Shown here: in pieces, positions 3,064 through 27,553 of the stretch | How positions within the stretch are numbered: position 1 is the first letter of the stretch | Layout of the letters: each line of letters opens with the position of its first letter | Origin: Methylorubrum extorquens | GTDB lineage: Bacteria > Pseudomonadota > Alphaproteobacteria > Rhizobiales > Beijerinckiaceae | Length of the DNA stretch: 32,000 nt | NCBI GenBank assembly: GCA_900234795.1 | Contig: LT962688.1 | Span: 750,001-782,000, forward strand | Direction of reading: 5' to 3' | Made by a program: the position numbers and the translations under genes | Notes under the pieces: model-generated | The model's database searches: none | What the model was told of the DNA's origin: nothing | What the model saw: only the letters and a program-made list of their open reading frames with translations

Positions 3064-3088
3064 GGAACCGGATCGGCGAGGCGGCGTT
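3064..3088 (+). promoter_or_regulatory. Candidate sigma-EcfG (general stress response) promoter, GGAAC-N16-CGTT
   Basis: GGAAC at 3064-3068, an exact 16-nt spacer, then CGTT at 3085-3088. This is a perfect match to the alphaproteobacterial EcfG consensus GGAAC-N16/17-CGTT. It is intergenic and points toward the small ORFs at 3223 and 3516. Confidence 0.45.
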
Positions 3089-8245: not shown

Positions 8246-8521
8246 ATGATTTGGGCACACACACGGATCACGACTGATAAGATCCGTTCGGTCGAACTCC
8301 TGTTTCGCGAACAGGACGTCTCCTTCGACCATGCGCGGCAGATGCTTCTCATCAGCGTGGCCGAGGACAGGTCGATGGTTCGTCTCTGGGTCTGCGTCCC
8401 AGAGATCGAGATGCTGACGTCCTATTACGGGTTCAGCCTGTGCACCCGGGCCGACCTGCCCCTGGCGCCGACCCTCGTTGCCGGCTGCCCCGAACAGTTC
8501 GGTCGCATCTTCCAGGGATAG
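8246..8521 (+). CDS. Hypothetical protein (91 aa) in a lower-GC patch
   Basis: Internal ATG of ORF 8195..8521, preceded by GGAGGG 9 nt upstream. Codon bias is weaker than in neighbouring genes. I recognised no family. Confidence 0.5.
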   Translation: MIWAHTRITTDKIRSVELLFREQDVSFDHARQMLLISVAEDRSMVRLWVCVPEIEMLTSYYGFSLCTRADLPLAPTLVAGCPEQFGRIFQG

Positions 8522-8586
8522 CGCATGCGCCCAGCCGATGAATTCCGGCCTTCATTCCGGGAGGAGGGGGTCCGGTGTCGTGAGCA

Positions 8587-11574: not shown

Positions 11575-12206
11575 ATGCAGGACATAGCGGCAAGCCTCGA
11601 ACGTGGACGGCCGAAGGATCTCGTCAGCGGCGCCCAGGTGCTTTCGGGTCAGCTCGGCAAGACGATCCAGCGTCTGCGCAAGGCCTACAACCTCTCCCTC
11701 TCCGAACTCGCCGAGCAATCGGGCGTGGCGAAGTCGATCATCAGCCAGATCGAGCGCAACGAGACCAATCCGACGCTGGCGACAATCTGGCGGTTGAGCC
11801 AGGCGCTCGACGTATCGATCGAGCGGGTGCTCGCCACCTCTGACGAAGAACCCTTCATCGAGCGCTTCTCGCGCGCCGACACACACCGCGGCTCGTCTCC
11901 GACGACGGCAAGGTGCGGCTGGCCATCATCGGCTGGATCAAGACCGTCGAGTGGCTGCAATGGTACGACGTCACCGCTGATGCCGGCGGCGTGCTCGAAT
12001 CCGACGCGCACCAGCGCGGCTCGGTCGAGTCGCTGTCCGTGCTGGAGGGCAGCTTCGAGGTGGATGTGGCCGGCGAAGTGCAGCGGGCGAATGCCGGCGA
12101 GACCCTGCGCTACCGCTGCGACCGCCCCCACAGCATCCGGTGCCTCGGCGACGCGCCCGGCCGCGCGACCATGGTCGTGATCATGAAGGCCGCCGTGATG
12201 GAGTGA
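11575..12206 (+). pseudogene. XRE-family HTH plus cupin-domain transcriptional regulator, frameshifted as sequenced
   Basis: The HTH part (LGKTIQRLRKAYNLSLSELAEQSGVAKSIISQIERNETNPTLATIWRLSQAL) is in ORF 11524..12180 up to ~11886. The cupin part (PRLVSDDGKVRLAIIGW...LESDAHQRGSVESLSVLEGSFEVDVAGE...YRCDRPHSI) is in the frame of ORF 11913..12206. The frame changes within ACACACCGCGG (11881-11891). This is consistent with a 1-nt loss in a C run or a 2-nt AC gain. The start is uncertain (11575 ATG or 11524 GTG). Confidence 0.75.
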
Positions 12207-12247
12207 TCCGGCGCCAGCCGCTCCCTTGTGGGCAGCGACATCGTACG

Positions 12248-12287
12248 AAAAAGGCCCCCGCCGCTCGCCAGCGACGGGGGCCTTTTT
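12248..12287. terminator. Bidirectional intrinsic terminator between the convergent XRE gene and the giant gene
   Basis: A5 (12248-12252), GGCCCCCG (12253-12260), loop, CGGGGGCC (12275-12282), T5 (12283-12287). A second 8-bp hairpin, GAGGCGGG/CCCGCCTC, lies at 12316-12346. Confidence 0.7.
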
Positions 12288-12361
12288 CATGGAGTAGCCT
12301 GGTCGATCGGGCCGTGAGGCGGGCCCGTTGACACCGAACCCGCCTCCTCCGACGTGAAGCC

Positions 12362-15300
12362 TCAGGCCTCGTCGAACCGGCCGCTGGCATGCGCAAGCAT
12401 GGTGTAGACCTTGCCCGTCTCCGAGGTGAGGTAGGCGTCCGCGCGCTTGGTGTCGCGATCGTTCTTCGTCACCTCGCCGAGCAGCCGCTCGAACTCGCCG
12501 ACATAGCGATCGACCGTGCGGCGGAACTCGGCATCCGCCCGGTAGCGGCGCTGGATCTGCTCGAAGGTCTGGCGCCCCCTGGACCGTGTAGAGGCGGCCG
12601 TCGAACAGGTTGGTGTCGCCCTGGCGGTAGCGCTGCCAGAACTCGACCGAGGCCTGATGATCCACCATCCGGGCGATGTCGGTCGAGATCGCGTCGAGCG
12701 AGATCCGCTCCACCGGCCCCTTCGCCTCGGGCGCGGCGACCGGAGCCGGGGCGGGGACCGCCTCGGCGCCGTCATCGTCGAGCGACGCGCGGGTCAGGAG
12801 ATCGGACAGCCAGCCGCGGTTGTCGCGGGTGCCGGGCCGCCCCTGGACCGGGCCGGGGACGGCGGCCGGGCTCGCCGGACGCACGGGGGCCGATGCCGGC
12901 TGAGACCGGCCCGCCGTCGGGGCCGCATTGCGGACCGGCGCAGGCGCGGAGACCGGTGCGGGCGCCGCCGCCCCCGACACGGCGCGGCCGGCCTCGGCCG
13001 TGCGGCGCTGCTCGGCCCCGCGGGCCTGCGCCGCTGGCTGGGCGACATCGACCGAGCGGTTCGAGCGGGCCACCAGGGCGGAGAGCTCGTTCAGCGCGTC
13101 GATCTGTTCGGCCACGACGCGACGCATCTCGCTCGTGGCATCCTGCGTCTCGCGGGGCAGGTCGAGAACGCCGCGCTGCAGGTCGGCGCGGGTGGCGTCG
13201 AGTTCGCGGCGAATCTCGGCGGCCATCGCATTCATCCGCGTGACCGAGTCGCCGAACTGGCCGGAGGCGGCGGCGAAGCTCTGCATCATCTTGGCGGAGG
13301 CCTCCTCGATGGCGCTGCGCACCGCTTCCGCCGTGCGGGCGCTCTCGGCATCCGCGCCGCTGCGCAGGCGCTCGAAGTCGCCCGCCACGGCGGTCCCGGC
13401 CTCGCGGGCCACGCGGGCCACGCTCTCGCTGAGTTCACGGGCGCGGGTCTCGGCCGCACGCAGCGTCTCCTCGATCACGCTGCCGAAGCGGCCGGTCTGG
13501 GCCTCGATGGCCTGGCTGCGCTCTTCGAGGCGGGACAGCACCGCCTCGACGACGGCCTGCCGGCTCGACAGGCTCTCGGCGAGACGGCCTTCGACCGCTT
13601 CCAGATTGCCGGCGGCCGCTTCGAGCGCGCCGACATAGGTGCCGGTGCGCTCCACCAGCGCCTTGCCGCGGGCATCCAGGGTCTCGGCGAGGCTGGACGC
13701 CTGGGCGAGTGCTCCCTGCGAGGCTTCGCGGAGCGCCACGACCTGGGTCGAGACCCGGTCGGAGGCCTGTGCCGTGTCGGCGGCGACCCGGTCGAGGGCC
13801 GACTGGATCTGCTCGACACGGGCCGCGAGCCCTTGCTCGATGGCACCGAGGTTCTCCGAGGCGCCGCCGACGAGGTCCTTCAGCCCGTCATTGGCGTGCT
13901 CGATCCGGGTGAGGAAGCCGGCGACGTCGCGGCGGACCCGCTCATGCGCCTGGGCGACGGTGTCGGCGGAGGCCGCCGCGCCCTCGTCCAGCGCGACGCG
14001 CAGGGCCTTGGCCGACTCGACGGTGCGGACGACGATGGCGTCGGTGCGCTCGCGCAGGGCCTCGACCAGCGGTGCACCCTTGTCGGCGATGAGCCGGTCG
14101 AGGGCCTGCTCCCGCTCGGCCAGGGCGTCGGCCAGGGCCGCGGCCGGTCCGTCGATCATGCGGGCCAGCGCGCCGTTGCGCTGATCCATCGTCTCGGCCA
14201 GCGCGTCGGCGCGGGCCTGGACCTCGGCCGCGTGACGGCGGGCGCGCTCCTCCAGCATCCGGCCCATCTGGGCGATGCCGTCGTCCACGAGCGCCGCGTA
14301 GGCGTTCTGGCGCTCGTCGAAGGTCTCCGCCAGGGCGGCCTGCCGCTCGGCACGCTCGTCCAGGGCCGCGACCATCCGGGCGGTACCGCCATCGATGAGC
14401 GCCGCGTAGGCCTCCTTCTGGCGGTCGAACGCCTCGGCCAGCACCGCGTGGCGGCGGGCCCGCTCTTCCAGTGCGGCGACCATGCGGGCGGTGCCCTGCT
14501 CGATCAGGGTGGCATAGGCGTCCCGCTGCCCGTCGAAGGCCTCGGTGAGGGCGGCCTGCCGCTGGGCACGCTCGTCGAGAGCCGCGACCATCCGGGCGGT
14601 GCCCTCCTCGATCACGCTCGCATAGGCATCGCGCTGCCCGTCGAGGGTCTCAGCGAAGGCGGCCTGCCGCTGGGCCCGCTCGTCGAGAGCCGCAACCATG
14701 CGGGCGGTGCCCTCCTCGATCAGCGCCGCGACGGCCCGCTGACGCTCCTCCACCGTCTCCGCCTGTGCGGCGTGGCGGCGCGCCCGTTCTTCGAGCGCGG
14801 CGACCATACGGGCGGTGCCCTGCTCGATCACGCTCGCATAGGATTCCCGCTGGCCGTCGAAGGCCTCGGCGAACGCGGCCTGCTGCCGGGCGCGCTCGTC
14901 CAGCGTCGCCGCGATCCGGGCGGTCCCCTCTTCGATCAAGGCGGCGACGGCCTTCTGGCGCTCCTCGACCGTCTCGAACTGGGCCGCGTGCTGGCGTGCG
15001 CGCTCATCGAGCGTCGCGACCATGCGGGCCGTGCCCCCGTCGATCTGCGCCGTGTAGGCGTCCTGGCGCTCGTCGAAGGCGTCGGCCAGCGCGTTGGCGC
15101 GGTTCGCCACCACGGTGGCGAAGGCGCGCAGGCGGGCGTCGATGCGGGCGGTGAAGTCCTCGCTGCGGGCCTCGACGGTCTGCGACAGGGTGGCCGCCTG
15201 GTTCTCCACAAGCCGGGCGAACTCGCCGCCGCGGCTCTCGACGAGCCCGTCGAGACTCCGCATCCGCTCATCGAACACCGTCGCCAGCGCCTGGGTCTGG

Positions 15301-18300
15301 GTCTCGAGGCGGCCGGTCAGCGCCGTCGAGCGCTCATCGACCAGGGCGCCGAGGGTGGCGTGGATCTCGTCGAACAGGGCGCGCAGCTCCTGCGACCGCC
15401 TTTCGACGGTCTGCGCGACCTGCTGGCCGCGCCCGTCCACGATGTCGCCGAGAACGCCGAGGCGCTCGTCGAACAGGTGGGCGAGCCCCCGCGTGCGGGC
15501 ATCGACCTCGCCGGCCGCGCGGCCGATGCCGCCTTCCAGCGTCTCCACGAACAGACGCGCGCCCTCGGTCAGCGCCGCCTGGAGCGGCAGGATGCGGCCC
15601 TGGAAGCCCTCGTCGAGGCGGCCGGCATGGCCGTCGAGCAGCCCGCGGATCTCGGCCGTGCGGTGGTCGAGGATGTCCTGAACCGTGCGGGCCCGCTCCT
15701 CCAGGGTGATGCGCAGATCATCGCTGCGGGCCTCGAGCATGGTGCGGATTTCGCCCGCGCGGCTGTCGAGCAGGTCCTGCACCGTGCGGGCCGGCTCCTC
15801 CAGGGCGGCGCGCAGGGCGCCGAGCCCGGTCTCGAACTCGCCACGGACATGGCCGGCGCTGCCATCCACGAGACCGCGCAGCTCGCCGGTACGGCTGTCG
15901 AGGGTGTTGCGGATCTCGGCGCTGCGGGCATCGAGCAACTCGCGCACCATGCGGATGCGCTCTTCCAGCGTCGTATCGAGGCTGCCGAGGCTCGCCTCGA
16001 ACGCGCCGCCGACCCGGCCGGAGACGTCTTCCATCAGGCCGCGCAGATCGTCGGTGCGGTGATCGAAGGTGTCGCGGATCTCGGCGCTGCGGGCATCGAG
16101 CAGGTCGCGCACCGTGCGGACGCGCTCCGCCAGCGTCGTGTCGAGGGCGCCGAGGCTCGCCTCGAACTCGTTGCGCACCCGTCCAGCACCGCCCTCCATC
16201 AGACCACGCAGGTCGTCGGTGCGGTGATCGAAGGTGTCGCGGATCTCGGCGCTGCGGGCGTCGAGCAGGTCGCGCACCGTGCGCAGGCGCTCGTCCAGCA
16301 CAGTCTCGAAGCTGCCGAGGCCGGCTTCGAGTTCGCCGCGCACGCGGCCGGCACTGCCTTCCATCAGGCCGCGCAGATCGTCCGCGCGGCTGTCGAGCAG
16401 AGTGCGGATCTCGCTCGCCTGGGTCTCGAAGGCGTGGCCGAGGCGGCCGGTGCCCTCGCCGAGCAGGCCGTCGACCTGTCCCATGAGGTCGCGCAGGGTC
16501 GCGAGCAAGGCGGTGCCGCGGCGGTCGAGCAGGGCGCCGAGCGAGGCGCCGCCCTGTTCCAGGGCCTGGGTGATGTCGGAGAGGCGTCCCTCAAGCCCTT
16601 CGACGGCCACGCGGCCGCGCTGGTCGAGGTCGGCGGCGAGCGCGCCGCCGCGCTCGTCGAACAGGTGGTTGAGGCTCTCGGCCCGCTCGTCGAACAGGCG
16701 GGCGATGGCCTCGACATGGCCGCCCAGCGCCTCGACGGCGAGACCGCTGCGGCGCTCCAGCAGGGCGACGAGGTCGCGGATGCGGCCGGTCAGCTCGCCG
16801 TCGATGGTGCGGGTGCGGCTCTCGATCAGGCGCACCGCTTCGAGCGCCTGGATGCCGAAGGATTCGTCGAGGTGGCGGGTGCGCTCCTCCAGCGTGCCGC
16901 TGAGGGCATCGAGGCGCGCGACCACGCCGGTATCGAGGCGCTCGGCGCCCTCGTCGAGGCGGCGGGCGAGATCCTGGGTCGTGCGCTCGAGCCGCTCGGC
17001 GATCTCGGCCGCGCGGGCGGCGAGAAGGTCGCCCACGGAGCGGCCACGGTCGGCGATGTCCTGCGCGGAGCCTTCGATGCGCCGGTCGAGGGCGTCAGTG
17101 AGGATGCGATTGCCCTCATCCAGCGTGCGGGCGATCTCGGAGCTGCGCAGCACCAGCGCCTCGTTGAGGGCATTGGCGCGGGCACCCAGCCGCGTGTCGA
17201 CATGGCCGACGAGGGCTGCGAAGCTCTCGCCGATCTCGGCGGCGCGACGGGCCGAGAGGGATTCCATCTCGCCGATGCGGGCCTCGACGGTCTCGCTGGC
17301 AAGGCGCGCACGCTCGGCCAGGGAGTCGGCGAGCGCATTGCCCTGCACGGCGATGATCCGGTCGATCTCGGTGAGGCGCGAATCCAGGGTGTCGCCGAGC
17401 GTCTGCGCGTTGCCGGCGATCCGGTCGGCGAGGATGTCGCCGCGGGCGATGGTTTCCTGCAGGGCGGCGAGCCGGTTGCCGAGGGCCTCCTCCACCGCGC
17501 GGGTGCGGCTGTCGGCGGTCTCGACGAAGGCAGCGTGGCTCCGGTGCAGCGTGTCGCCGACCTGCGACACATGGCCGGCAATGGCGAGCACGACCTCGCG
17601 GCTGGCGCCTTCGAGGCGGGCCTGGGCCTCGTCGGACTGGCTGGCGATGAGCGCGGCGGCGCCGCGGCCGTGACGGCCGAAGCTGTCCTCCAGAGTTCCC
17701 AGGCGGGTCTCCAGCTCGGTGCCGACGTCCTCTGCGGTGCGCGACAGCGCCAGCGTCGTGGCCTCGCCGCGGGCGGCAACCTCGTCGCCGAGCCGGCGCA
17801 GCGTCTCGCGCAGGGCCTCCAGGGCGCTCTCGGTGCGGCCGCCGACCTCGCCGCCGGCCTGTTCGGCCGCACGGGCGAGGGAAGCGGTGGCCTCGGCGCT
17901 GCGGGCCGACAGCTCGTCGCCGATCTGGGCCAGGGCGTCGCGCAGGCTGCGCAGCGACGCCTCGGTGCGGCTGTTGACCTCGCCGCCAGCCTGCTCGGCC
18001 GCGCGGGCCAGGGCCGCACTGGTCTCGGCGCCGCGGGTGGACAGCTCCTCGCCGATCCGGCCTAGCGTCTCACGCAGGCTCCGCAGCGATTCCTCAGTGC
18101 GCGCACCGACTTCGCCGCCGACCCGCTCGGCGGTCCGCGCCAGCGCGTCCGTCACCTCGGCGCTGCGGCCGTCGATCTCGTTCTGCACCTGCCGCAGCAG
18201 GTCGCGCAGACCCTGCGCCGACTGGTCGGCACGGCTGCCGATCTCGCCGCCGGCCTGAGCCGCCGCCAGCGACAGGGCGACGCTGGCCTCCGAGCCGCGC

Positions 18301-20759
18301 ACGGAGATCTCGTCGGCCACCTGCCGCAGGAGATCCTGAAGCGCGTGCATCGACTGGTTGGTGCGGTTGTCGATCTCGCCACCGGCATGGGCGGCGGCGA
18401 GCGCCAGGGCGCCGGTCGCCTCGGCGCTGCGGGCCGACAGCTCGTCGGCCATCCGCTGGATCGCGGCGTGAAGGGCCTGCGACGCGCTCTCACTGCGGCT
18501 GCCCAGCTCGCCCCCGACGCGGTCGGCGGCGGCCTGGAAGCGGCCCACCACGTCGTCCGAACGGCTCTCGACGGCGGCGGCGGCCTCGTCGGCCGCGCGG
18601 CGCAGCGCCTCGGCGGCTTCGGCGAAGCGGGTGGTGACGGCGGCGCTCTGCGCCTGCGCGGCCCCCGAGGTCTCCTCGGCAACGTGCAGCATCCGCGCGG
18701 TCGATTCCACGGCGCGCTCGGCGAGCAGGTCGCTCATGGCCTCGGCGGCCTCGCGCAGACGGCGCTCCAGCGCTTCGACGCTCGCGCCGACGGACGCGGT
18801 CGCGGTCTCCGCGTTGCGGCGGATGCCGTCCTGGGCAGCGCCGGTGCGGGCATCGAGATCCTGGCCCAGACGGGCCACGGTCTCGCCCAGGCTCTCGGCG
18901 GTGCCGTTCGCGTTCGCGGCGAAGGAGGCGCCGAGCCCGGCCAGAGCCTGCTCGACGGTGGCGGCGGCCTGCGCCGCCCGCTCGGTCATCAGGCCGACGA
19001 CCCGTTCGCCCGCCGTGTCGAGGTTCGAGGCGAGCGCCCCGCCCTGGACGGCGATGACATCATCGACGCGGGACGCCGCCGCCTCGATGCGGGCGGCGAG
19101 TTCGAGACCGCGGCCGTCCATGGTCTCGGCCGCGCGGGTGGCGGACGCCAGGAACGCGTCGCGGACCCGGTCGATGCGGGTGGAGAAGTCGTCGGCGACG
19201 CTGCCGGCGGCAAGCGCCAGGGCGGCCTGCGCGTCACGCCCACGGCCCTCGATCAGTTCGGAGACGCCGGTGCCGGCGGCCTCGATCTCGGTGCGCAGCG
19301 AGGCGCCGCGAACGGCGATGTCCTCGGAGATCGCCGCGCCGGTGGCGGCGAAGTTGCGGCTCAAGCCCTCGCCGGTCTCGGCGAAGCGGGCGGTGATCGC
19401 GCCGCCGGTCTGAGCGAAGCGCTCGGTCAGCTCGGTCCCGCGCGACAGGAAGGCCTCTTCCAGGCCCCTCGTCGAGCGCTCGAAGGTCTCGCGCACGGCG
19501 CCGCCCTGGCGGTCGAGCGCCTCGATCAGGCCGGTGCCGGTCTCGGACAGGGATTGGGCGACGGCGCCCGCATTGTCGGCCAGCGTGCGGGTGAGCGCCC
19601 CGCCGGTGCGCTCGAAGGCCTGCGTCACCTCGTCGGCGCGCTGCTGCAGTGCGCTGGTAAGGGTGGTGCCGATCTCTTCCAGGCCGCCGCGCACGCCTTC
19701 GCTGGTGGCGGTGAGCTGGCGGACGAGGTCGTCGCCGCGGGTCGAGACGTTTCCGACCACCCGTTCGCCGACCTCGCCGAGCGCTTCGGTGATCGCGGTG
19801 CCGCGGGCATCGAGCGCCCCGGTCACGCGCTCGCCCGCGCCGTTGATGGCGGCCACGATGCGCTCGGCCGCGCCCTCCAGCTCGCTCGACAGGTTCTCGT
19901 GCGAGCCGGCGATCGCGCCGCGCACCCGGTCGGCGCTGCCGACGATGGACTCGCGCTGGGCGATCAGCTCATCGACGAGGCTGCGGATGCGGATCTCGTT
20001 ATCGGAATAGGCGCGCTCCAGGGTCGAGATCTCGCCGCGCACCAGCGTTTCGAGTTCGCCGGCGCGGGCGAGTGCCCGCTCCACGCCGTCGCCGACGGCC
20101 GCGACTTCGCGGCGCACGGTCTGCGACATGGTCAGTACCGCGTCGGTCGAGAAGCTCTCGGGCTCGGCCAGCCGGATCGCCACCTCGCCGACGGCGCGGG
20201 CGACGAGGCGCATCTCGTGGGCGCGCACGGCCAGCATCGCCGTGATGAGGAACAGCACGATCGGCCCGGCGATGGCGGTAGCCACCACCGCCGCCTGAAG
20301 CGCGGTGAGCCCGGTGATGAACGTCTTCAGATCGCCGCCGGACTGGTTCCAGGCGAGCGCCACGAGACCGTTGAGCCACAGGAACGAGGCGATGGCCGCG
20401 ACGAGGTACGGCTTGCGCGAGGGCCGCACCCGGAGCGTCTGCTGCAGGATGCCGATGTTCTGGCGGTCGTCGTTGGCGACCAGCGAGCGGTCGGGCGGCA
20501 GAAGCCCGCCCTCGCGGCGCGAGCGCCCCCGCTCGGGCAGCGGCAGATCAGAGGCGGCGGGATCGATGTCGAGGGTCGGGGTGCGGCGTCCCCCGGCCTC
20601 GGAGAACGGATCGGCCAGCGGATCGCTGTCGCCGACATCGGGCAGCCGCGGCTCGACGCGGGCGGTGTCGCCCGGTGCCGGAATGTCCAGATTCAAAGCC
20701 TGCTCGATCGCGGAGAGGGCCGCCTCTGCCGGATCCTTCAGCTTCTTCTCGGTGGCCAT
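12362..20759 (-). CDS. Giant (~2,798 aa after frame repair) membrane-anchored helical-repeat protein, GPR/RgsE-like; one frameshift near the 3' end as sequenced
   Basis: Tracked as ORF 11685..20948. The best start is the ATG at 20759 (MATEKKLKDPAEAAL), with GAGGG just upstream. Two predicted TM helices sit near the N-terminus (PYLVAAIASFLWLNGLVALAW and LQAAVVATAIAGPIVLFLITAMLAV). These are followed by >2,000 aa of Ala/Glu/Arg-rich repeats, a Pro/Ala linker and a globular C-terminal domain. The frame breaks at the C5 run 12575-12579. The sensible end (...LYTVQG | RQTFEQIQRRYRADAEFRRTVDRYVGEFERLL...HASGRFDEA*) is in ORF 12362..12775. The 11685..12574 tail of the tracked ORF is junk that crosses a terminator and the XRE gene. 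Confidence 0.85.
14172..15035 (-). repeat. In-frame tandem repeat array, 108 nt / 36 aa, 8 units (GTARMVAALDERA.RQAA.AE.FD.QR.AYA..IE.)
   Basis: The CAT triplets encoding the Met of GTARM recur at 14265, 14373, 14481, 14589, 14697, 14805 and 15021; the unit at 14913 encodes Ile instead. Spacing is exactly 108 nt. Confidence 0.9.
15645..16412 (-). repeat. In-frame tandem repeat array, 165 nt / 55 aa, 4 units plus one 33-aa unit (LLDARSAEIRDTFDHRTDDLRGLMEG.AGRVR.EFEA.LG.L...L.ER.RTVRD)
   Basis: The anchor GCGGAT[CT]TC (EIR codons) occurs at 15744, 15909, 16074, 16239 and 16404, exactly 165 nt apart, plus 15645 (99 nt). About 60 nt are nearly identical between the units at 16056-16118 and 16221-16283. 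Confidence 0.9.
17592..18515 (-). repeat. In-frame tandem repeat array, 132 nt / 44 aa, ~7 units (GGE[VIL]..R[TS]E.S...L...L..[IL]..E[LI]S.R..E....L...A...)
   Basis: The anchor GA[CT][CT]TCGCC[GA]CC recurs at 17844, 17976, 18108, 18240 and 18372, with degenerate copies at 17712 and 18504. Spacing is exactly 132 nt. Confidence 0.9.
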
Positions 20760-21092
20760 GCAACCCTCGTACGCATCGCCGTCCATTGCAGAGCTCGCGC
20801 CCTCCGCAATGGAGACGGATTTACCCGACGTCTCACGGGATCTTAGTCCCTCGGATGATGCCCCCGATACCCGATCGGCCCGGCGCACCCAAGAAACCTT
20901 AACGGAATGGTTACCAAGCCGGGTCCCGTGATCCGGCATTCGCCCCAAGTTCTGACGCTTGCAGCCTTAAACGGGTACGCCCCGGCGCGCCCTGCGCTGT
21001 GGATAGCCGGCGCCACCCACAGGCAGGTCGCCGCGCCGAGCGCTTTGACCCAGAACCGGGCGGATGGAGCGGTCGTTTCATCCCGAACAACG

Positions 21093-24420: not shown

Positions 24421-24954
24421 ATGTCGGAAACCAATCAGGTCACGCAACACGACCGTATCGAACTCGCAGCCGATCTCGTCTCGGCTTATGTCTCCAACAA
24501 CTCTCTGCCGTCGCCTGAACTCGCGGGCTTGATTGTTCAGGTTCATGCGGCCCTGGTCGCCCTGTCGGCACCGCAGGCGCCCAAGGAAGAAGAAGTCGAG
24601 CGGGCGACACCGGCCCAGATCAAGAAGTCGATCACGCCGGATGCCCTGATCTCCTTCATCGACGGCAAGCCATACAAGACGCTCAAGCGGCACCTGACCA
24701 CGCACGGCCTCGACATCGACGGCTACCGCCGCCGCTACGGCCTGCCGGCCGACTATCCGACGGTCTCGTCCAACTATTCGGCCGCGCGCTCGGCGCTCGC
24801 CAAGGATCTCGGCCTCGGCCAGCAGCGCCGCAAATCCTCGGCGAAGGCCGCGGAGCCGGTCGATGAGGTGGTGGCGGAAGCGGCCCCTGAGCCGCGCCGC
24901 AAGGCCGCTGCCGGCGAAGGCCGCAAGACCGGCGGGCGCCGCAAGGCCGCCTGA
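24421..24954 (+). CDS. mucR: MucR/Ros family transcriptional regulator, second zinc-ligand-deficient paralogue
   Basis: Internal ATG of ORF 24307..24954 (MSETNQVTQHDRIELAADLVSAYVSNN...). The core is ISFIDGKPYKTLKRHLTTHGLDIDGYRRRYGLPADYPTVSSNYSAARSALA. The Cys ligand positions are S and D. Confidence 0.9.
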   Translation: MSETNQVTQHDRIELAADLVSAYVSNNSLPSPELAGLIVQVHAALVALSAPQAPKEEEVERATPAQIKKSITPDALISFIDGKPYKTLKRHLTTHGLDIDGYRRRYGLPADYPTVSSNYSAARSALAKDLGLGQQRRKSSAKAAEPVDEVVAEAAPEPRRKAAAGEGRKTGGRRKAA

Positions 24955-25690
24955 GGATCGATGCCGCGTTGGCGGAGTCATCGGACTCCGCTGGCCGGCT
25001 CCGATACGGCGGGTCGATAGGGTCTGCGCAGTCGAAGCCCGGGCCGATCGCAAGGCCGCCGGGCCGGCCGACCGCTCTCAATGCGTCGCAGGAAGGCTTG
25101 CAGACGCAGCGGCAGCGCTTCGCTGCTCGCGCGCTCTATTCGCTGACGGCCTGTGTAGCCCTCTGCTCACCGCAGACGCACTCACAAGGCGCCGCGTCCC
25201 GATGCGGCCTGCGCCATCTCGCGAAGACGGGCTCCCCCAGAGACAGGCCCCGCGAGCCAGTCGCATTCAGCTCGGCGGGCTTCGTCCAACGTCGGATTTT
25301 CGCGACGGGACGCCCACGTGGTTTCCAGCTTCCGGCAAGGCTAATCAGAGGTTCGCGTTCGCGCAACGACCCCGACATGATCAAGAGTCGGTACGTCGGC
25401 CCCACGGATACGATCGGGCTGCCTCCGAAGCGTCCTTCAGGGCATCGTCCGGCCCGGAGTCCGACGGCTTTCAGCAATCGACGCTACGAGATTCGAGACC
25501 CCAACCACGGTCTTGACCGGAACCCGCTGCACGGAAGCAGATACGGGTCCGAGACCGTAAAGCGGGCCGTATCACCAAGTCCCGTAAGTCGGACCCGTCT
25601 GCCCATCATCGGGCAAACCGCTCGGCCTTTACCGCATCCGTCGCCACCGTTTCGATGGCGAGACGGTTCCGGCGTCCTTCGAGCCAACAA

Positions 25691-26425
25691 TCAGGCGTCG
25701 GGCATCGCCGACTGGATGAGACGGTCAGAGGACAGATCCTCCTCGTCATACCCGAGGAGTTCGGCGAGACGGCCGCGGGCGCGGCTGACGCGGCTCTTCA
25801 CCGTGCCGACCTTGCAGCCCATGATGGTCGCGGCCTCCTCGTAGGAGACGCCCTCGGCGCCCACCAGCACGAGGGCCTCGCGCTGGTCCGGCGGCAGCTT
25901 GGCGAGCGCCGTCTGCAGATCCTCGACATCGAGCCGGTCGCCCTGATGCGGCGCGGTCGCGAGGCGGGCGGCGTAGGAGCCGTCCTGATCCTCGACCTCG
26001 CGCACGCGCTTGCGGTGATCCGAGTAGAAGATGTTGCGCAGGATCGTGAAGAGCCACGCGTTGAGGTTCGTGCCCGGCTGGAAGCGGGCGCGGTGCTGCC
26101 AACCCTTGAGCAGGGTGTCCTGCACGAGGTCGTCGGAGCGCGCGGGGTTCGAGGTCAGCGACAGGGCGAAGGCGCGCAAGGACGGCACCGCGGAGAGCAG
26201 GCCGTTGCGGAATTCGGGATCGATCCGCTCGCCCTGCGCCTTGAGGGCCGCTTCGAGCTTGCCGATCAGTTCGGAGAAGCGGGACGGTGTGTCCTCGCCC
26301 GCGCCGAGCGTGTCGTACACGCTGCGCAGATGATCGCCGAGATGGCTGCGGATTGAGTCGGAAAGTTTGGGACGGCCGTCTGTCATCGCGGGACGATCCA
26401 GGGTCGCTTCGGTATCGTTACGCAT
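25691..26425 (-). CDS. ECF sigma factor (EcfG/SigT-like) with a ~65-aa NepR-like N-terminal extension
   Basis: ORF 25691..26506, with the start taken at the ATG at 26425 (MRNDTE..., GAAGAG upstream). Region 2 reads DDLVQDTLLKGWQHRARFQPGTNLNAWLFTILRNIFYS. Region 4 reads LPPDQREALVLVGAEGVSYEEAATIMGCKVGTVKSRVSRARGRL. The N-terminal segment LGDHLRSVYDTLGAGEDTPSRFSELIGKLE follows the NepR pattern. Confidence 0.85.
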   Translation of the reverse strand: MRNDTEATLDRPAMTDGRPKLSDSIRSHLGDHLRSVYDTLGAGEDTPSRFSELIGKLEAALKAQGERIDPEFRNGLLSAVPSLRAFALSLTSNPARSDDLVQDTLLKGWQHRARFQPGTNLNAWLFTILRNIFYSDHRKRVREVEDQDGSYAARLATAPHQGDRLDVEDLQTALAKLPPDQREALVLVGAEGVSYEEAATIMGCKVGTVKSRVSRARGRLAELLGYDEEDLSSDRLIQSAMPDA

Positions 26426-26672
26426 CGGGCTCTTCGCGATCGGGACTTTTCGGCAATGCCGGCGCAGTGCCGCACACGGGGCAGGCCCCGGCACGGCCCT
26501 TAACATAGTTGTAGCGCATCGGCCCGATCACGCACACCCGCGCCACGCGAAATACTGCCACGCTTGCACACCAGACGGTAGTCTGTCGCCCGAAGAGTGA
26601 GATGATTCGCCGATCCTGCCGCTTGAATGCGGCAAATCGGCAGGCCCCTCCGCCTTTCCCGATCGATCGCCC

Positions 26673-27495
26673 TCAGACCGCGCCGTGGATCTCCGGCATC
26701 GGCCGCGCGCGCCGCCGCGTCGCGCCCTTCCGCACCCGCACCACCCCGTCGGTGAGAACGAGGGTGTCGCCGCGCTCCAGTTCGGTCCACGTCTCGTCCC
26801 GGGTCAGCGCCCGCGTGGCGATCATGGTGACGATATCGGTCTCGGTGGTCTCCTGAGCGAAATCGACCCGCCAATCCTCGTCGATCAGCGTCGCCGTGCC
26901 GAACGGCGCCCGGCGGGTGAGGTAGCAGAGCCGCTTGCCGCAATGGGCGTAGAGCACGCGGCTGTCGGAAAGCAGCATGTTGAACACGCCGCGCTCCGAA
27001 AGGATGAGGGCGTAACCCGCAATCGCCGCCTCCAGGGTCGCGGCGCGGGGCGGCTTGGGGAAGCGCTCCTGAAGCTGCGACAGCATCCAGCAGAAGGCGT
27101 GTTCGCTGTCGGTGGTGCCGACCGGCTCGAACCGGCCGAGCGGCAGCCGCTTCACGCCCTTGAGCTGGCCGTTATGGGCGAAGGTCCAGCGCCGGCCCCA
27201 CAGCTCGCGGGAGAAGGGGGTGGGTGTTCTCCAGGCTGACGCGCCCGCGATTGGCCTTGCGGACATGCGCGACGACGATGCGGCTCTTGATCGGATAGCG
27301 GCGCAGGAGCTTGGCGAGTTCGGAGCGGGCGCTGGGCTCGGGATCGTGAAAGGAGCGGCAGCCGCGCCCCTCGTAGAAGGTGATGCCCCAGCCGTCGGCA
27401 TGCGGGCCGGTCTCGCCGCCGCGCCGGGCCAAAGCCGCGAAGGAGAAGCGGATATCGGTCGGCACATTCGCGCTCATTCCGAGCAGTTCGCACAT
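26673..27495 (-). pseudogene. yafJ: Class II glutamine amidotransferase, YafJ-like, frameshifted as sequenced
   Basis: [19 protein letters not shown]...[10 protein letters not shown]...[20 protein letters not shown] is in ORF 27172..27579. The continuation [18 protein letters not shown]...TDSEHAFCW...GVFNMLLSD...TRRAPFG is in ORF 26673..27467. The frames join if one G is removed from the G5 run at 27216-27220. Confidence 0.8.
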
Positions 27496-27553
27496 GGTGG
27501 CCGGGGTCTTCTGCGTCGCGCGCGGTAGGATCGAGAGAGGCGGGGAGGGGAAA

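What the first reader, a model, noticed from the sequence alone, without database searches (positions are those of the whole stretch)
25691..26425. EcfG-like ECF sigma factor carrying a NepR-like anti-sigma motif in cis at its N-terminus
Residues ~52-88 of the tracked ORF (nt 26243-26353) read IRSHLGDHLRSVYDTLGAGEDTPSRFSELIGKLEAAL. This follows the NepR pattern (LG..LR..YD.......P.RF..L[LI]..LE), the region NepR uses to bind sigma-EcfG and phospho-PhyR.

- The motif runs in frame, with no stop, into a complete region 2 / region 4 ECF sigma factor of the EcfG/SigT type (AWLFTILRN).
- No anti-sigma gene follows. Instead there is a 736-bp gene-free gap.

The fusion suggests auto-inhibition in cis, possibly relieved by PhyR~P. 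That would be a variation on the PhyR-NepR-EcfG partner switch. I cannot tell from memory whether this architecture is already catalogued in ECF classifications.
Basis: partly seen in the sequence, partly recalled or inferred. Interest (0 to 1): 0.65.

Follow-up and report, generated by a model that had tools for sequence, protein, structure and literature searches.

The report
Known NepR-like extension on sigma-EcfG1
The gene is the well-studied general-stress sigma factor EcfG1 of the Methylobacterium extorquens group, and its NepR-like N-terminal extension is real but was already described in 2009 and 2016, although what the extension does is still unknown.

Summary
The 244-aa ORF at 25691-26425 (-) encodes an EcfG-type ECF sigma factor. 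Residues 25-61 match the NepR family: Pfam PF18557 scores E 3e-5, and a profile of the extension hits all four solved NepR structures.

It is not new. Twelve published primers for M. extorquens AM1 ecfG1 (MexAM1_META1p4906) map onto this gene, eight of them exactly. They include the primers that define both in-vivo start codons (26425 and 26386) and the truncation point (G65) of the published extension-less construct.

Francez-Charlot et al. (2016, citing their 2009 paper) state that all EcfG paralogues of Methylobacteriaceae carry this ~55-aa NepR-like extension from an ancient nepR-ecfG fusion. They also report that only truncated EcfG1 binds NepR in vitro and in two-hybrid assays.

The extension is kept in 80 orthologues (dN/dS 0.40, against 0.02-0.04 for the sigma domains) and in distant paralogues.

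Published data favour the extension masking the NepR-binding surface. They argue against strong auto-inhibition, because full-length EcfG1 complements a sextuple ecfG mutant.

My AlphaFold runs were uninformative about cis docking.

The 736-bp gap is a non-coding, poorly conserved spacer between convergent genes.

The parts
25691..26425 (-). ecfG1 coding sequence (244 aa plus stop), orthologue of M. extorquens AM1 MexAM1_META1p4906
   Evidence: All 12 published '4906' primers map here, 8 of them exactly. Two differ only at their designed mutations and two share one mismatch. None of six control primers (ecfG2-6, nepR) matches. NCBIfam PRK12547 scores 231 bits against a cut-off of 219. The best Foldseek PDB match is the B. 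quintana EcfG/RpoE chain 5uxx_A at 52% identity. Gene callers call the identical 244-aa protein in complete genomes.
26423..26425 (-). Start codon 1 (ATG), full-length isoform
   Evidence: The published full-length two-hybrid primer ATGCGTAACGATACCGAAG matches 26425..26407 exactly. The start1 mutagenic primer (ATG>TAG) maps to 26432..26411. Orthologue N-termini align to this Met. A GAAGAG Shine-Dalgarno-like hexamer ends 4 nt upstream (by eye).
26384..26386 (-). Start codon 2 (ATG, codon 14), short in-vivo isoform
   Evidence: The start2 mutagenic primer (ATG>ATC) maps to 26392..26374. The paper reports a second isoform lacking the first 14 residues that arises from a second start codon. Both isoforms keep the NepR-like motif.
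26237..26359 (-).
   Evidence: Pfam NepR E 3.2e-5. Profile against PDB NepR chains. hhalign against free-standing NepR proteins gives 99.4% probability, though those proteins were picked with the same profile. AF2 predicts helices at 23-41 and 46-63. Motif positions are at least 90% conserved in 80 orthologues, with dN/dS 0.40.
26234..26425 (-). Residues 1-64, the segment deleted in the published 'S' (short) EcfG1 construct
   Evidence: The 'S' two-hybrid primer GGCGAGCGGATCGATC matches 26233..26218, so the S form begins at G65. Only this truncated form binds NepR in vitro and in two-hybrid assays.
25997..26215 (-). Sigma region 2 (aa 71-143)
   Evidence: Pfam Sigma70_r2 and PhyR_sigma2. dN/dS 0.04.
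25754..25927 (-). Sigma region 4 (aa 167-224)
   Evidence: Pfam Sigma70_r4_2 at 8.5e-19, plus PhyR_sigma-like. dN/dS 0.02.
26414..26633 (-). Promoter fragment used in the published ecfG1p::lux reporter
   Evidence: Primers 4906p1_F2 (one mismatch) and 4906p_R3 (exact) map to 26633..26615 and 26414..26435. The fragment is reported as neither stress-induced nor PhyR-dependent. No GAAC-N16/17-SGTT motif lies here and no sigma-70 consensus match.
24955..25690 (.). 736-bp non-coding spacer between convergent ecfG1 and the Ros/MucR-like gene. It is not part of the system.
   Evidence: No coding-like ORF (GC3 0.62-0.73). No Pfam, Rfam or terminator-like hit. Only one other species aligns, at 72-75% identity. 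In other Methylorubrum species the spacer is about 200-540 bp.

Best explanation
This is ecfG1, the main NepR-controlled general-stress sigma factor (ECF15/EcfG family) of a strain in the Methylobacterium/Methylorubrum extorquens group.

Shown: its first ~64 residues are a diverged NepR domain. It is a two-helix hairpin carrying the NepR motif and sits where nepR lies in canonical nepR-ecfG operons. It is translated as part of the sigma factor from either of two start codons. It is conserved in every orthologue and paralogue examined, all from Methylobacteriaceae. The authors of the 2016 paper suggested that it results from an ancient nepR-ecfG gene fusion.

Inferred mechanism (about 0.4-0.5 likely): the extension folds back onto the NepR-binding surface of sigma regions 2 and 4. 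There it acts as an intramolecular competitor of free NepR. This would tune how tightly NepR can sequester the sigma factor, and so set the threshold of the PhyR-NepR-EcfG partner switch. It would not act as a full auto-inhibitor. Control of EcfG1 still runs through free NepR and PhyR~P encoded elsewhere in the genome.
For: Identity:
- Eight of 12 AM1 ecfG1 primers match exactly. Two differ only at their designed mutations and two share one mismatch. Six control primers (ecfG2-6, nepR) do not match.
- NCBIfam and Pfam assignments.
- 5uxx_A is the best structural match.

NepR homology.

Prior description: an extension of about 55 aa that 'resembles NepR', found only in Methylobacteriaceae, attributed to an ancient fusion.

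Fusion plausibility: in Sphingopyxis granuli, nepR2 overlaps ecfG1 by 4 bp.

Functional constraint:
- Motif positions are at least 90% conserved across 80 orthologues, with dN/dS 0.40, below 1.
- H28, L29, G30, L33, Y37, L53 and L57 are at least 90% conserved across 85 homologues that go down to about 51% identity.

Masking of the NepR site: only EcfG1 lacking residues 1-64 binds NepR in vitro and in two-hybrid assays, and the same holds for EcfG5.

Not a full inhibitor: full-length isoforms complement the sextuple mutant.
Against: - No direct evidence shows that the extension touches sigma regions 2 and 4.
- My AF2 model has pTM 0.48. It superposes poorly on the NepR-bound sigma chain 5uxx_A (TM 0.46, rmsd 17 A). 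So it does not reproduce a NepR-like closed state.
- The isolated extension is predicted just as confidently as in the full-length context, so pLDDT says nothing about docking.
- Full-length EcfG1 is pulled down with NepR in vivo, so any masking is incomplete or conditional.
- The failure of full-length protein to bind in vitro or in two-hybrid assays could be a folding or steric artefact of the constructs.
- The extension evolves about 10 times faster than the sigma domains.
Confidence: 0.85

Rival explanations
1. The extension is a true cis anti-sigma domain that keeps the sigma factor inactive until phospho-PhyR binds the extension directly and releases regions 2 and 4. That would be a partner switch that needs no free NepR.
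For: - The extension keeps the NepR motif that binds both sigma-EcfG and PhyR in other species.
- Most AM1 EcfG paralogues bind no NepR homologue in two-hybrid assays.
Against: - Full-length EcfG1 complements the sextuple mutant, and EcfG1 is regulated through free NepR.
- EcfG2, which also has the extension, behaves as constitutively active.
- No PhyR-extension interaction is reported in the literature I could search.
- AF2 gave no closed conformation.
Confidence: 0.15
2. The extension is an evolutionary remnant of the fused nepR. It has no regulatory role today, or at most a generic effect on solubility or stability.
For: - It evolves about 10 times faster than the sigma domains, with dN/dS 0.40 against 0.02-0.04.
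- The window's copy falls just below the Pfam NepR cut-off.
- The 2016 paper says any function is 'currently not known'.
Against: - The motif residues are kept at 90% or more in 80 orthologues and in paralogues down to about 51% identity.
- No examined homologue has lost the segment.
- Removing it changes NepR binding.
Confidence: 0.17
3. The extension governs something other than the NepR site. One option is turnover or proteolysis of the sigma factor. Another is insulation between the many EcfG and NepR paralogues so that each sigma factor is regulated differently.
For: - EcfG3 protein levels rise on stress through post-transcriptional control.
- Methylobacterium species carry 2-11 EcfG paralogues plus NepR paralogues that bind PhyR but no sigma factor.
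Against: No data link the extension to stability. EcfG1 levels do not change on stress.
Confidence: 0.15
4. Annotation artefact. Translation really starts downstream of the motif, and the NepR-like stretch is untranslated leader that happens to be in frame.
For: None beyond the general uncertainty of start codons in high-GC genomes.
Against: - Both in-vivo isoforms start upstream of the motif, as shown by published mutagenesis of the two ATGs.
- The segment is conserved at the protein level, with dN/dS below 1.
- No in-frame ATG lies between codon 14 and region 2.
Confidence: 0.02

Closest known systems
Sigma-EcfG1 of Methylobacterium (Methylorubrum) extorquens AM1, MexAM1_META1p4906 (Francez-Charlot et al. 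2016, PMC4814048, which cites its reference [4])
   Same: It is the same gene. Published cloning, mutagenesis, truncation and promoter primers map onto it. It has the same two start codons, the same NepR-like extension and the same lack of an EcfG-type promoter, and it does not sit at the phyR locus.
   Different: Only strain-level nucleotide differences. Two of the primers share one mismatch at 26615-26633. The window is 99.88% identical to CP021054.1 over 6.7 kb.
Canonical nepR-ecfG operon with divergent phyR, as in Sphingomonas melonis, Caulobacter crescentus SigT/NepR and Bartonella quintana (PDB 5UXX)
   Same: It has the same two modules, a NepR motif followed by an EcfG sigma factor, in the same 5'-to-3' order. 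The sigma part is 52% identical to the 5uxx_A chain.
   Different: Here the two modules are one polypeptide. No phyR is adjacent and there is no autoregulatory GAAC-N16/17-CGTT promoter. A separate free NepR elsewhere in the genome still regulates the sigma factor.
ECF sigma factors with fused regulatory extensions, such as C-terminal extensions in several ECF groups and N-terminal extensions in Planctomycetes groups formerly called ECF87-89 (review PMC8103513)
   Same: The general principle is shared: a regulatory segment, possibly derived from an anti-sigma factor, is fused in cis to the sigma factor.
   Different: Those extensions are unrelated in sequence. This one is N-terminal, homologous to a soluble anti-sigma factor of a partner switch, and coexists with a free copy of that anti-sigma factor. 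The two reviews read here do not list it.
PhyR (a sigma-like domain fused to a receiver domain)
   Same: It belongs to the same regulatory module family. The window protein also matches the Pfam PhyR_sigma2 and PhyR_sigma-like models because PhyR mimics EcfG.
   Different: PhyR fuses a degenerate sigma factor to a receiver and binds NepR in trans. Here a real sigma factor is fused to a degenerate NepR.

Membership tests
EcfG / ECF15 sigma factors | Only sigma regions 2 and 4, with family-level sequence similarity to EcfG | tested here: met
   Pfam Sigma70_r2 and Sigma70_r4_2. NCBIfam PRK12547 scores 231 bits against a cut-off of 219. The best Foldseek PDB hit is the B. quintana EcfG chain 5uxx_A at 52% identity. 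I did not run the ECF Hub classifier itself. The ECF15 assignment comes from the paper, for the AM1 orthologue.
EcfG / ECF15 sigma factors | Orthology to an experimentally characterised EcfG | tested here: met
   Published ecfG1 primers match the gene and primers for ecfG2-6 do not.
EcfG / ECF15 sigma factors | Typical context: nepR immediately upstream and phyR divergent nearby | tested here: not met
   The upstream gene is a GATase_4 and the downstream gene is Ros/MucR-like. The 32-kb window has no NepR-like ORF. This is the known exception for Methylobacterium.
EcfG / ECF15 sigma factors | Autoregulatory EcfG-type promoter GAAC-N16/17-(C/G)GTT upstream | tested here: not met
   No match lies near the gene. 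The two matches elsewhere in the window are at chance level. This agrees with the paper.
NepR anti-sigma factors (Pfam PF18557) | Profile match to the NepR motif | tested here: inconclusive
   The window protein scores 23.9 bits, E 3.2e-5, with full profile coverage, but below the curated 25.7-bit cut-off. Many orthologues and paralogues pass. The family-level profile hits PDB NepR chains at 2e-5. hhalign gives 99.4% against free-standing NepRs, with partly circular selection. Homology is well supported. Strict per-sequence membership is borderline.
NepR anti-sigma factors (Pfam PF18557) | Two-helix hairpin (alpha1, linker, alpha2) | tested here: met
   AF2 predicts helices 23-41 and 46-63 in the full-length protein, and the same two helices when the extension is modelled alone. 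This is prediction only.
NepR anti-sigma factors (Pfam PF18557) | Small free-standing protein (about 50-140 aa) | tested here: not met
   It is fused in frame to the sigma factor. Free-standing relatives are 49-140 aa.
NepR anti-sigma factors (Pfam PF18557) | Binds sigma-EcfG and phospho-PhyR | not testable with these tools
   The only indirect published evidence is that deleting the extension permits NepR binding. No PhyR-extension assay was found in the literature searched.

The most novel reading that the evidence does not exclude
Phospho-PhyR binds the cis NepR-like domain of EcfG paralogues directly. This would give a two-protein partner switch that works without free NepR. It would also explain why EcfG2 and other paralogues depend on PhyR even though they bind no NepR homologue, a point the 2016 authors flagged as unexplained.
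Probability: 0.15. Interest if true: 0.6.

Novelty: already known. Interest (0 to 1): 0.15.

Why it matters
For a genome scan, this locus is a re-discovery of a published feature in a model organism, so it should not be counted as new.

The residual value is that the function of the extension has stayed open since 2009. The 2016 paper calls it 'currently not known', and two later ECF reviews do not mention it. If someone shows how it works, this would be the first mechanistically understood N-terminal regulatory extension of an ECF sigma factor. It could also clarify how Methylobacterium wires 2-11 EcfG paralogues to a single PhyR.

Tried and rejected
- **Single-sequence PDB search.** phmmer of the extension against PDB found only noise such as tropomyosin and N-WASP. 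The profile search was needed.
- **AF2 of the full-length protein, then Foldseek.** I hoped to see whether the extension sits between regions 2 and 4.
  - The tool gives no coordinates or PAE.
  - pTM was 0.48, and the fit to the NepR-bound sigma chain 5uxx_A was poor (TM 0.46, rmsd 17 A).
  - The result is inconclusive, leaning against a NepR-like closed state.
- **AF2 of the extension alone as a control.** It was as confident as in the full-length context, so pLDDT cannot indicate docking.
- **Foldseek of that 53-aa model.** It returned nothing because the model is too short.
- **Papers not held.** The 2009 PNAS paper (PMC2642658) and the 2015 Annual Review (PMC4710059) are not in the library. 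What the 2009 paper says is cited only through the 2016 paper.
- **Hidden gene or RNA in the 736-bp gap.** Pfam, Rfam, GC3, terminator scan and cross-species conservation were all negative.
- **A separate NepR in the window.** None was found. The 11.5-bit hit at 8281-8538 covers only 14 residues of the leader part and is spurious.
- **The 271-aa reading from ATG 26506.** I rejected it.
  - Orthologues start at the position of M28.
  - The closest homologue has an ATG five codons upstream of M28, where the window has ATC.
  - GC3 of the extra 27 codons is 0.74.
- **Fused proteins outside Methylobacteriaceae.** Every carrier with a named organism was Methylobacterium, Methylorubrum or Microvirga. 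The exceptions are unclassified 'Beijerinckiaceae' and 'Proteobacteria' MAGs and one likely contaminated Kitasatospora assembly.

Full report
**1. What is in the sequence**

The minus strand carries an open frame from 26506 to 25691 (271 aa).

Residues 25-61 of that protein (nt 26243-26353) read IRSHLGDHLRSVYDTLGAGEDTPSRFSELIGKLEAAL. They continue without a stop into a complete ECF sigma factor.

Pfam finds these domains, numbered on the 271-aa frame:
- Sigma70_r2 (aa 108-169) and Sigma70_r4_2 (aa 196-247).
- The two PhyR sigma-like models, as expected for an EcfG that PhyR mimics.
- NepR (PF18557) at residues 53-87. It covers 34 of 35 profile positions at E 3.2e-5 and 23.9 bits, just under the curated 25.7-bit cut-off.

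NCBIfam PRK12547 is passed, at 231 bits against a cut-off of 219. The stated coordinates, motif, AWLFTILRN signature and 736-bp gap are all correct.

**2. Is the NepR resemblance real?**

Yes. Four lines of evidence agree.
- **PDB search.** A single-sequence search found nothing. A profile of 45 extensions from homologues (alignment A2) put NepR chains at ranks 1, 2, 3 and 5: 5uxx_B at 2e-5, 4qic_B at 3e-5, 2lfw_B at 5e-3 and 3t0y_B at 0.12.
- **Representative library.** Against 1.84 billion representative proteins the same profile found 2093 hits at E up to 1e-3. The top 150 are nearly all 49-140 aa long. Of the seven small hits I scanned, all match Pfam NepR, four of them above the curated cut-off at up to 60 bits.
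- **Profile-profile comparison.** hhalign against 50 free-standing NepR-sized proteins gives 99.4% probability over 49 columns. That set was selected with the same profile, so the number is inflated.
- **Predicted structure.** AlphaFold2 predicts the expected helix-loop-helix, with helices at 23-41 and 46-63.

**3. Which gene is it?**

The homologues are 240-250-aa proteins of Methylobacterium, Methylorubrum and Microvirga. Many carry PF18557 in precomputed annotation, and NCBI names several of them 'NepR family anti-sigma factor'.

A genome scan found one orthologue of at least 84% identity in each of 80 species genomes. The flanking genes are shared in the Methylorubrum relatives I compared.

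The decisive evidence comes from the primer table of Francez-Charlot et al. 2016 (PMC4814048, S5 Table). All 12 primers for ecfG1 (MexAM1_META1p4906) map onto this gene:
- Eight match exactly.
- Two mutagenic primers differ only at their designed changes.
- Two primers share a single mismatch at 26615-26633.
- None of the six control primers, for ecfG2-6 and nepR, matches anywhere in the window.

The primers also annotate the gene.

| Primer | Window position | What it defines |
|---|---|---|
| Full-length two-hybrid primer | starts at 26425 | start codon 1 |
| start1 mutagenic (ATG>TAG) | 26432..26411 | start codon 1 |
| start2 mutagenic (ATG>ATC) | 26392..26374 | start codon 2 (ATG 26386, codon 14) |
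| 'S' (short) construct primer | 26233..26218 | truncated form begins at G65 |

The window is 99.88% identical over 6.7 kb to CP021054.1. The shared primer mismatch indicates it is not AM1 itself.

**4. What is already published**

The 2016 paper states the following:
[quoted passage not shown] - Its function 'is currently not known'.
- EcfG1 exists in vivo as a full-length form and a form lacking the first 14 residues, the latter from a second start codon.
- Both isoforms complement a sextuple ecfG mutant and are pulled down with NepR.
- Only EcfG1 truncated of the extension binds NepR in vitro, and the same pattern holds in two-hybrid assays for EcfG1 and EcfG5.
- No ecfG gene lies at the phyR locus or has an EcfG-type promoter.

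My scans agree on the last point. No GAAC-N16/17-SGTT motif lies upstream, and no NepR-like ORF occurs elsewhere in the window.

Later ECF reviews (PMC8103513 and PMC8999054) do not mention it. I found no later paper addressing its mechanism.

**5. New supporting analysis**

I compared the window gene with 80 orthologues by region.

| Region (aa) | dN/dS |
|---|---|
| NepR-like segment (22-63) | 0.40 |
| Sigma region 2 | 0.04 |
| Sigma region 4 | 0.02 |

The extension evolves about ten times faster than the sigma domains but is still under purifying selection. Motif positions I25, R26, H28, L29, G30, L33, R34, Y37, R49, F50, L53, L57, E58, A59 and L61 are at least 90% conserved.

Across 85 homologues that go down to about 51% identity, H28, L29, G30, L33, Y37, L53 and L57 stay at 90% or more. 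That argues against a neutral relic.

The NepR-like segment occupies the position nepR has in canonical nepR-ecfG operons. In Sphingopyxis granuli, nepR2 overlaps ecfG1 by 4 bp, so loss of one stop codon could create such a fusion.

**6. Mechanism**

Shown:
- The extension is translated.
- It is NepR-derived and conserved.
- Removing it unmasks NepR binding in vitro and in two-hybrid assays.

Inferred: it docks in cis on the NepR-binding face and competes with free NepR, tuning the switch rather than silencing the sigma factor.

Three observations argue against strong auto-inhibition:
- Full-length EcfG1 complements the sextuple mutant.
- EcfG1 regulation runs through free NepR and PhyR.
- EcfG2, which has its own extension, looks constitutively active.

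It remains possible, because the authors note that EcfG2 and others must be controlled by PhyR through an unidentified mechanism. I found no test of it.

My structural attempts did not settle cis docking:
- The full-length model has pTM 0.48.
- It fits the NepR-bound sigma chain 5uxx_A poorly, with TM 0.46 and rmsd 17 A.
- The extension alone is predicted as confidently as in context.
- The 53-aa model is too short for Foldseek.
- The tools expose neither coordinates nor PAE.

**7. The gap and the neighbours**

The 736-bp stretch (24955-25690) lies between convergent genes, ecfG1 and a Ros/MucR-family regulator (PF05443, 2e-40).
- Its ORFs lack the GC3 signature of genes, at 0.62-0.73 against 0.87 for ecfG1.
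- It has no Pfam, Rfam or terminator-like hit.
- It aligns only to the nearest other species, at 72-75% identity. In other Methylorubrum species the spacer is shorter, about 200-540 bp.

It is a variable spacer and is not evidence about sigma-factor regulation.

In canonical operons nepR lies upstream of ecfG. Here the upstream gene is a class-II glutamine amidotransferase.

**8. Verdict**

- Novelty: already known.
- Interest is low for discovery. There is a modest residual open question about what the extension does.

Noticed in passing
window 26673-27507 (-), frameshift near 27214-27221: The class-II glutamine amidotransferase (Pfam GATase_4) just upstream of ecfG1 is split into two ORFs by one extra C in a C-run. 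All ten relatives listed in the alignment, including the five best-matching, have one C fewer. In the six genomes that carry the identical EcfG1, five have an intact GATase of 267-273 aa and one has it merged into a 702-aa call. It is either a strain-specific pseudogene or a homopolymer sequencing error.
   Followed up: yes
window 24421-24954 (+) (longer frame from 24307): The Ros/MucR-family regulator convergent with ecfG1 reads 'ISFIDGKPYKTLKRHLTTHG' where, from memory, Ros has its CxxC...H...H zinc ligands. The cysteines seem to be replaced, so it may be a zinc-less MucR-type protein. This was judged by eye only.
   Followed up: no
window 11685-20966 (-): A giant open frame of about 3,090 aa is made of at least ten Apolipoprotein A1/A4/E-type amphipathic-helix repeats (PF01442, 1.4e-71), plus an ApoLp-III match. 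That is an unusual protein for a bacterium.
   Followed up: partly
window 25754-25996 and 25694-25753 (aa 144-166 and 225-244 of EcfG1): Across 80 orthologues the sigma2-sigma4 linker shows no amino-acid change in the median comparison (median dN 0), although AF2 models it with low confidence. A C-terminal tail after region 4 (LLGYDEEDL..D...SAM) is also strongly conserved, at dN/dS 0.06. G225, Y226 and D234 are at least 90% conserved in paralogues too. The reason is unknown.
   Followed up: partly
homologue table (P0006, P0010, P0013, P0035, P0042, P0057, P0060, P0062, P0066): NCBI names these full-length 240-260-aa sigma factors 'NepR family anti-sigma factor'. The name apparently comes from the small N-terminal domain and is misleading for proteins that are sigma factors.
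   Followed up: no
L009 (NZ_JBEORY010000051.1, 'Kitasatospora sp. NPDC097691'): An actinomycete assembly contains a contig with a 97%-identical Methylobacterium ecfG1. Contamination of that assembly is likely.
   Followed up: no
P0030 (234 aa, on a 974-bp ENA contig): This protein is 100% identical to the window protein from KLEAALKAQGER onward, but its first ~45 residues are an unrelated signal-peptide-like sequence. It is probably a chimeric metagenome assembly.
   Followed up: no
window 3065-3088 (+) and 21053-21077 (+): These are the only two matches in the window to the EcfG promoter consensus GAAC-N16/17-(C/G)GTT. The count is at chance level (1.6 expected), so they are not evidence of GSR targets.
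   Followed up: partly
window 25250-25700: GC content drops to 0.60-0.64 in the half of the convergent spacer next to ecfG1, against a window mean of 0.71. The spacer has the same length (727-744 bp) in the six genomes that carry the identical EcfG1, and it aligns at about 95-99.9% identity in all six. In other Methylorubrum species it is about 200-540 bp long.
   Followed up: partly
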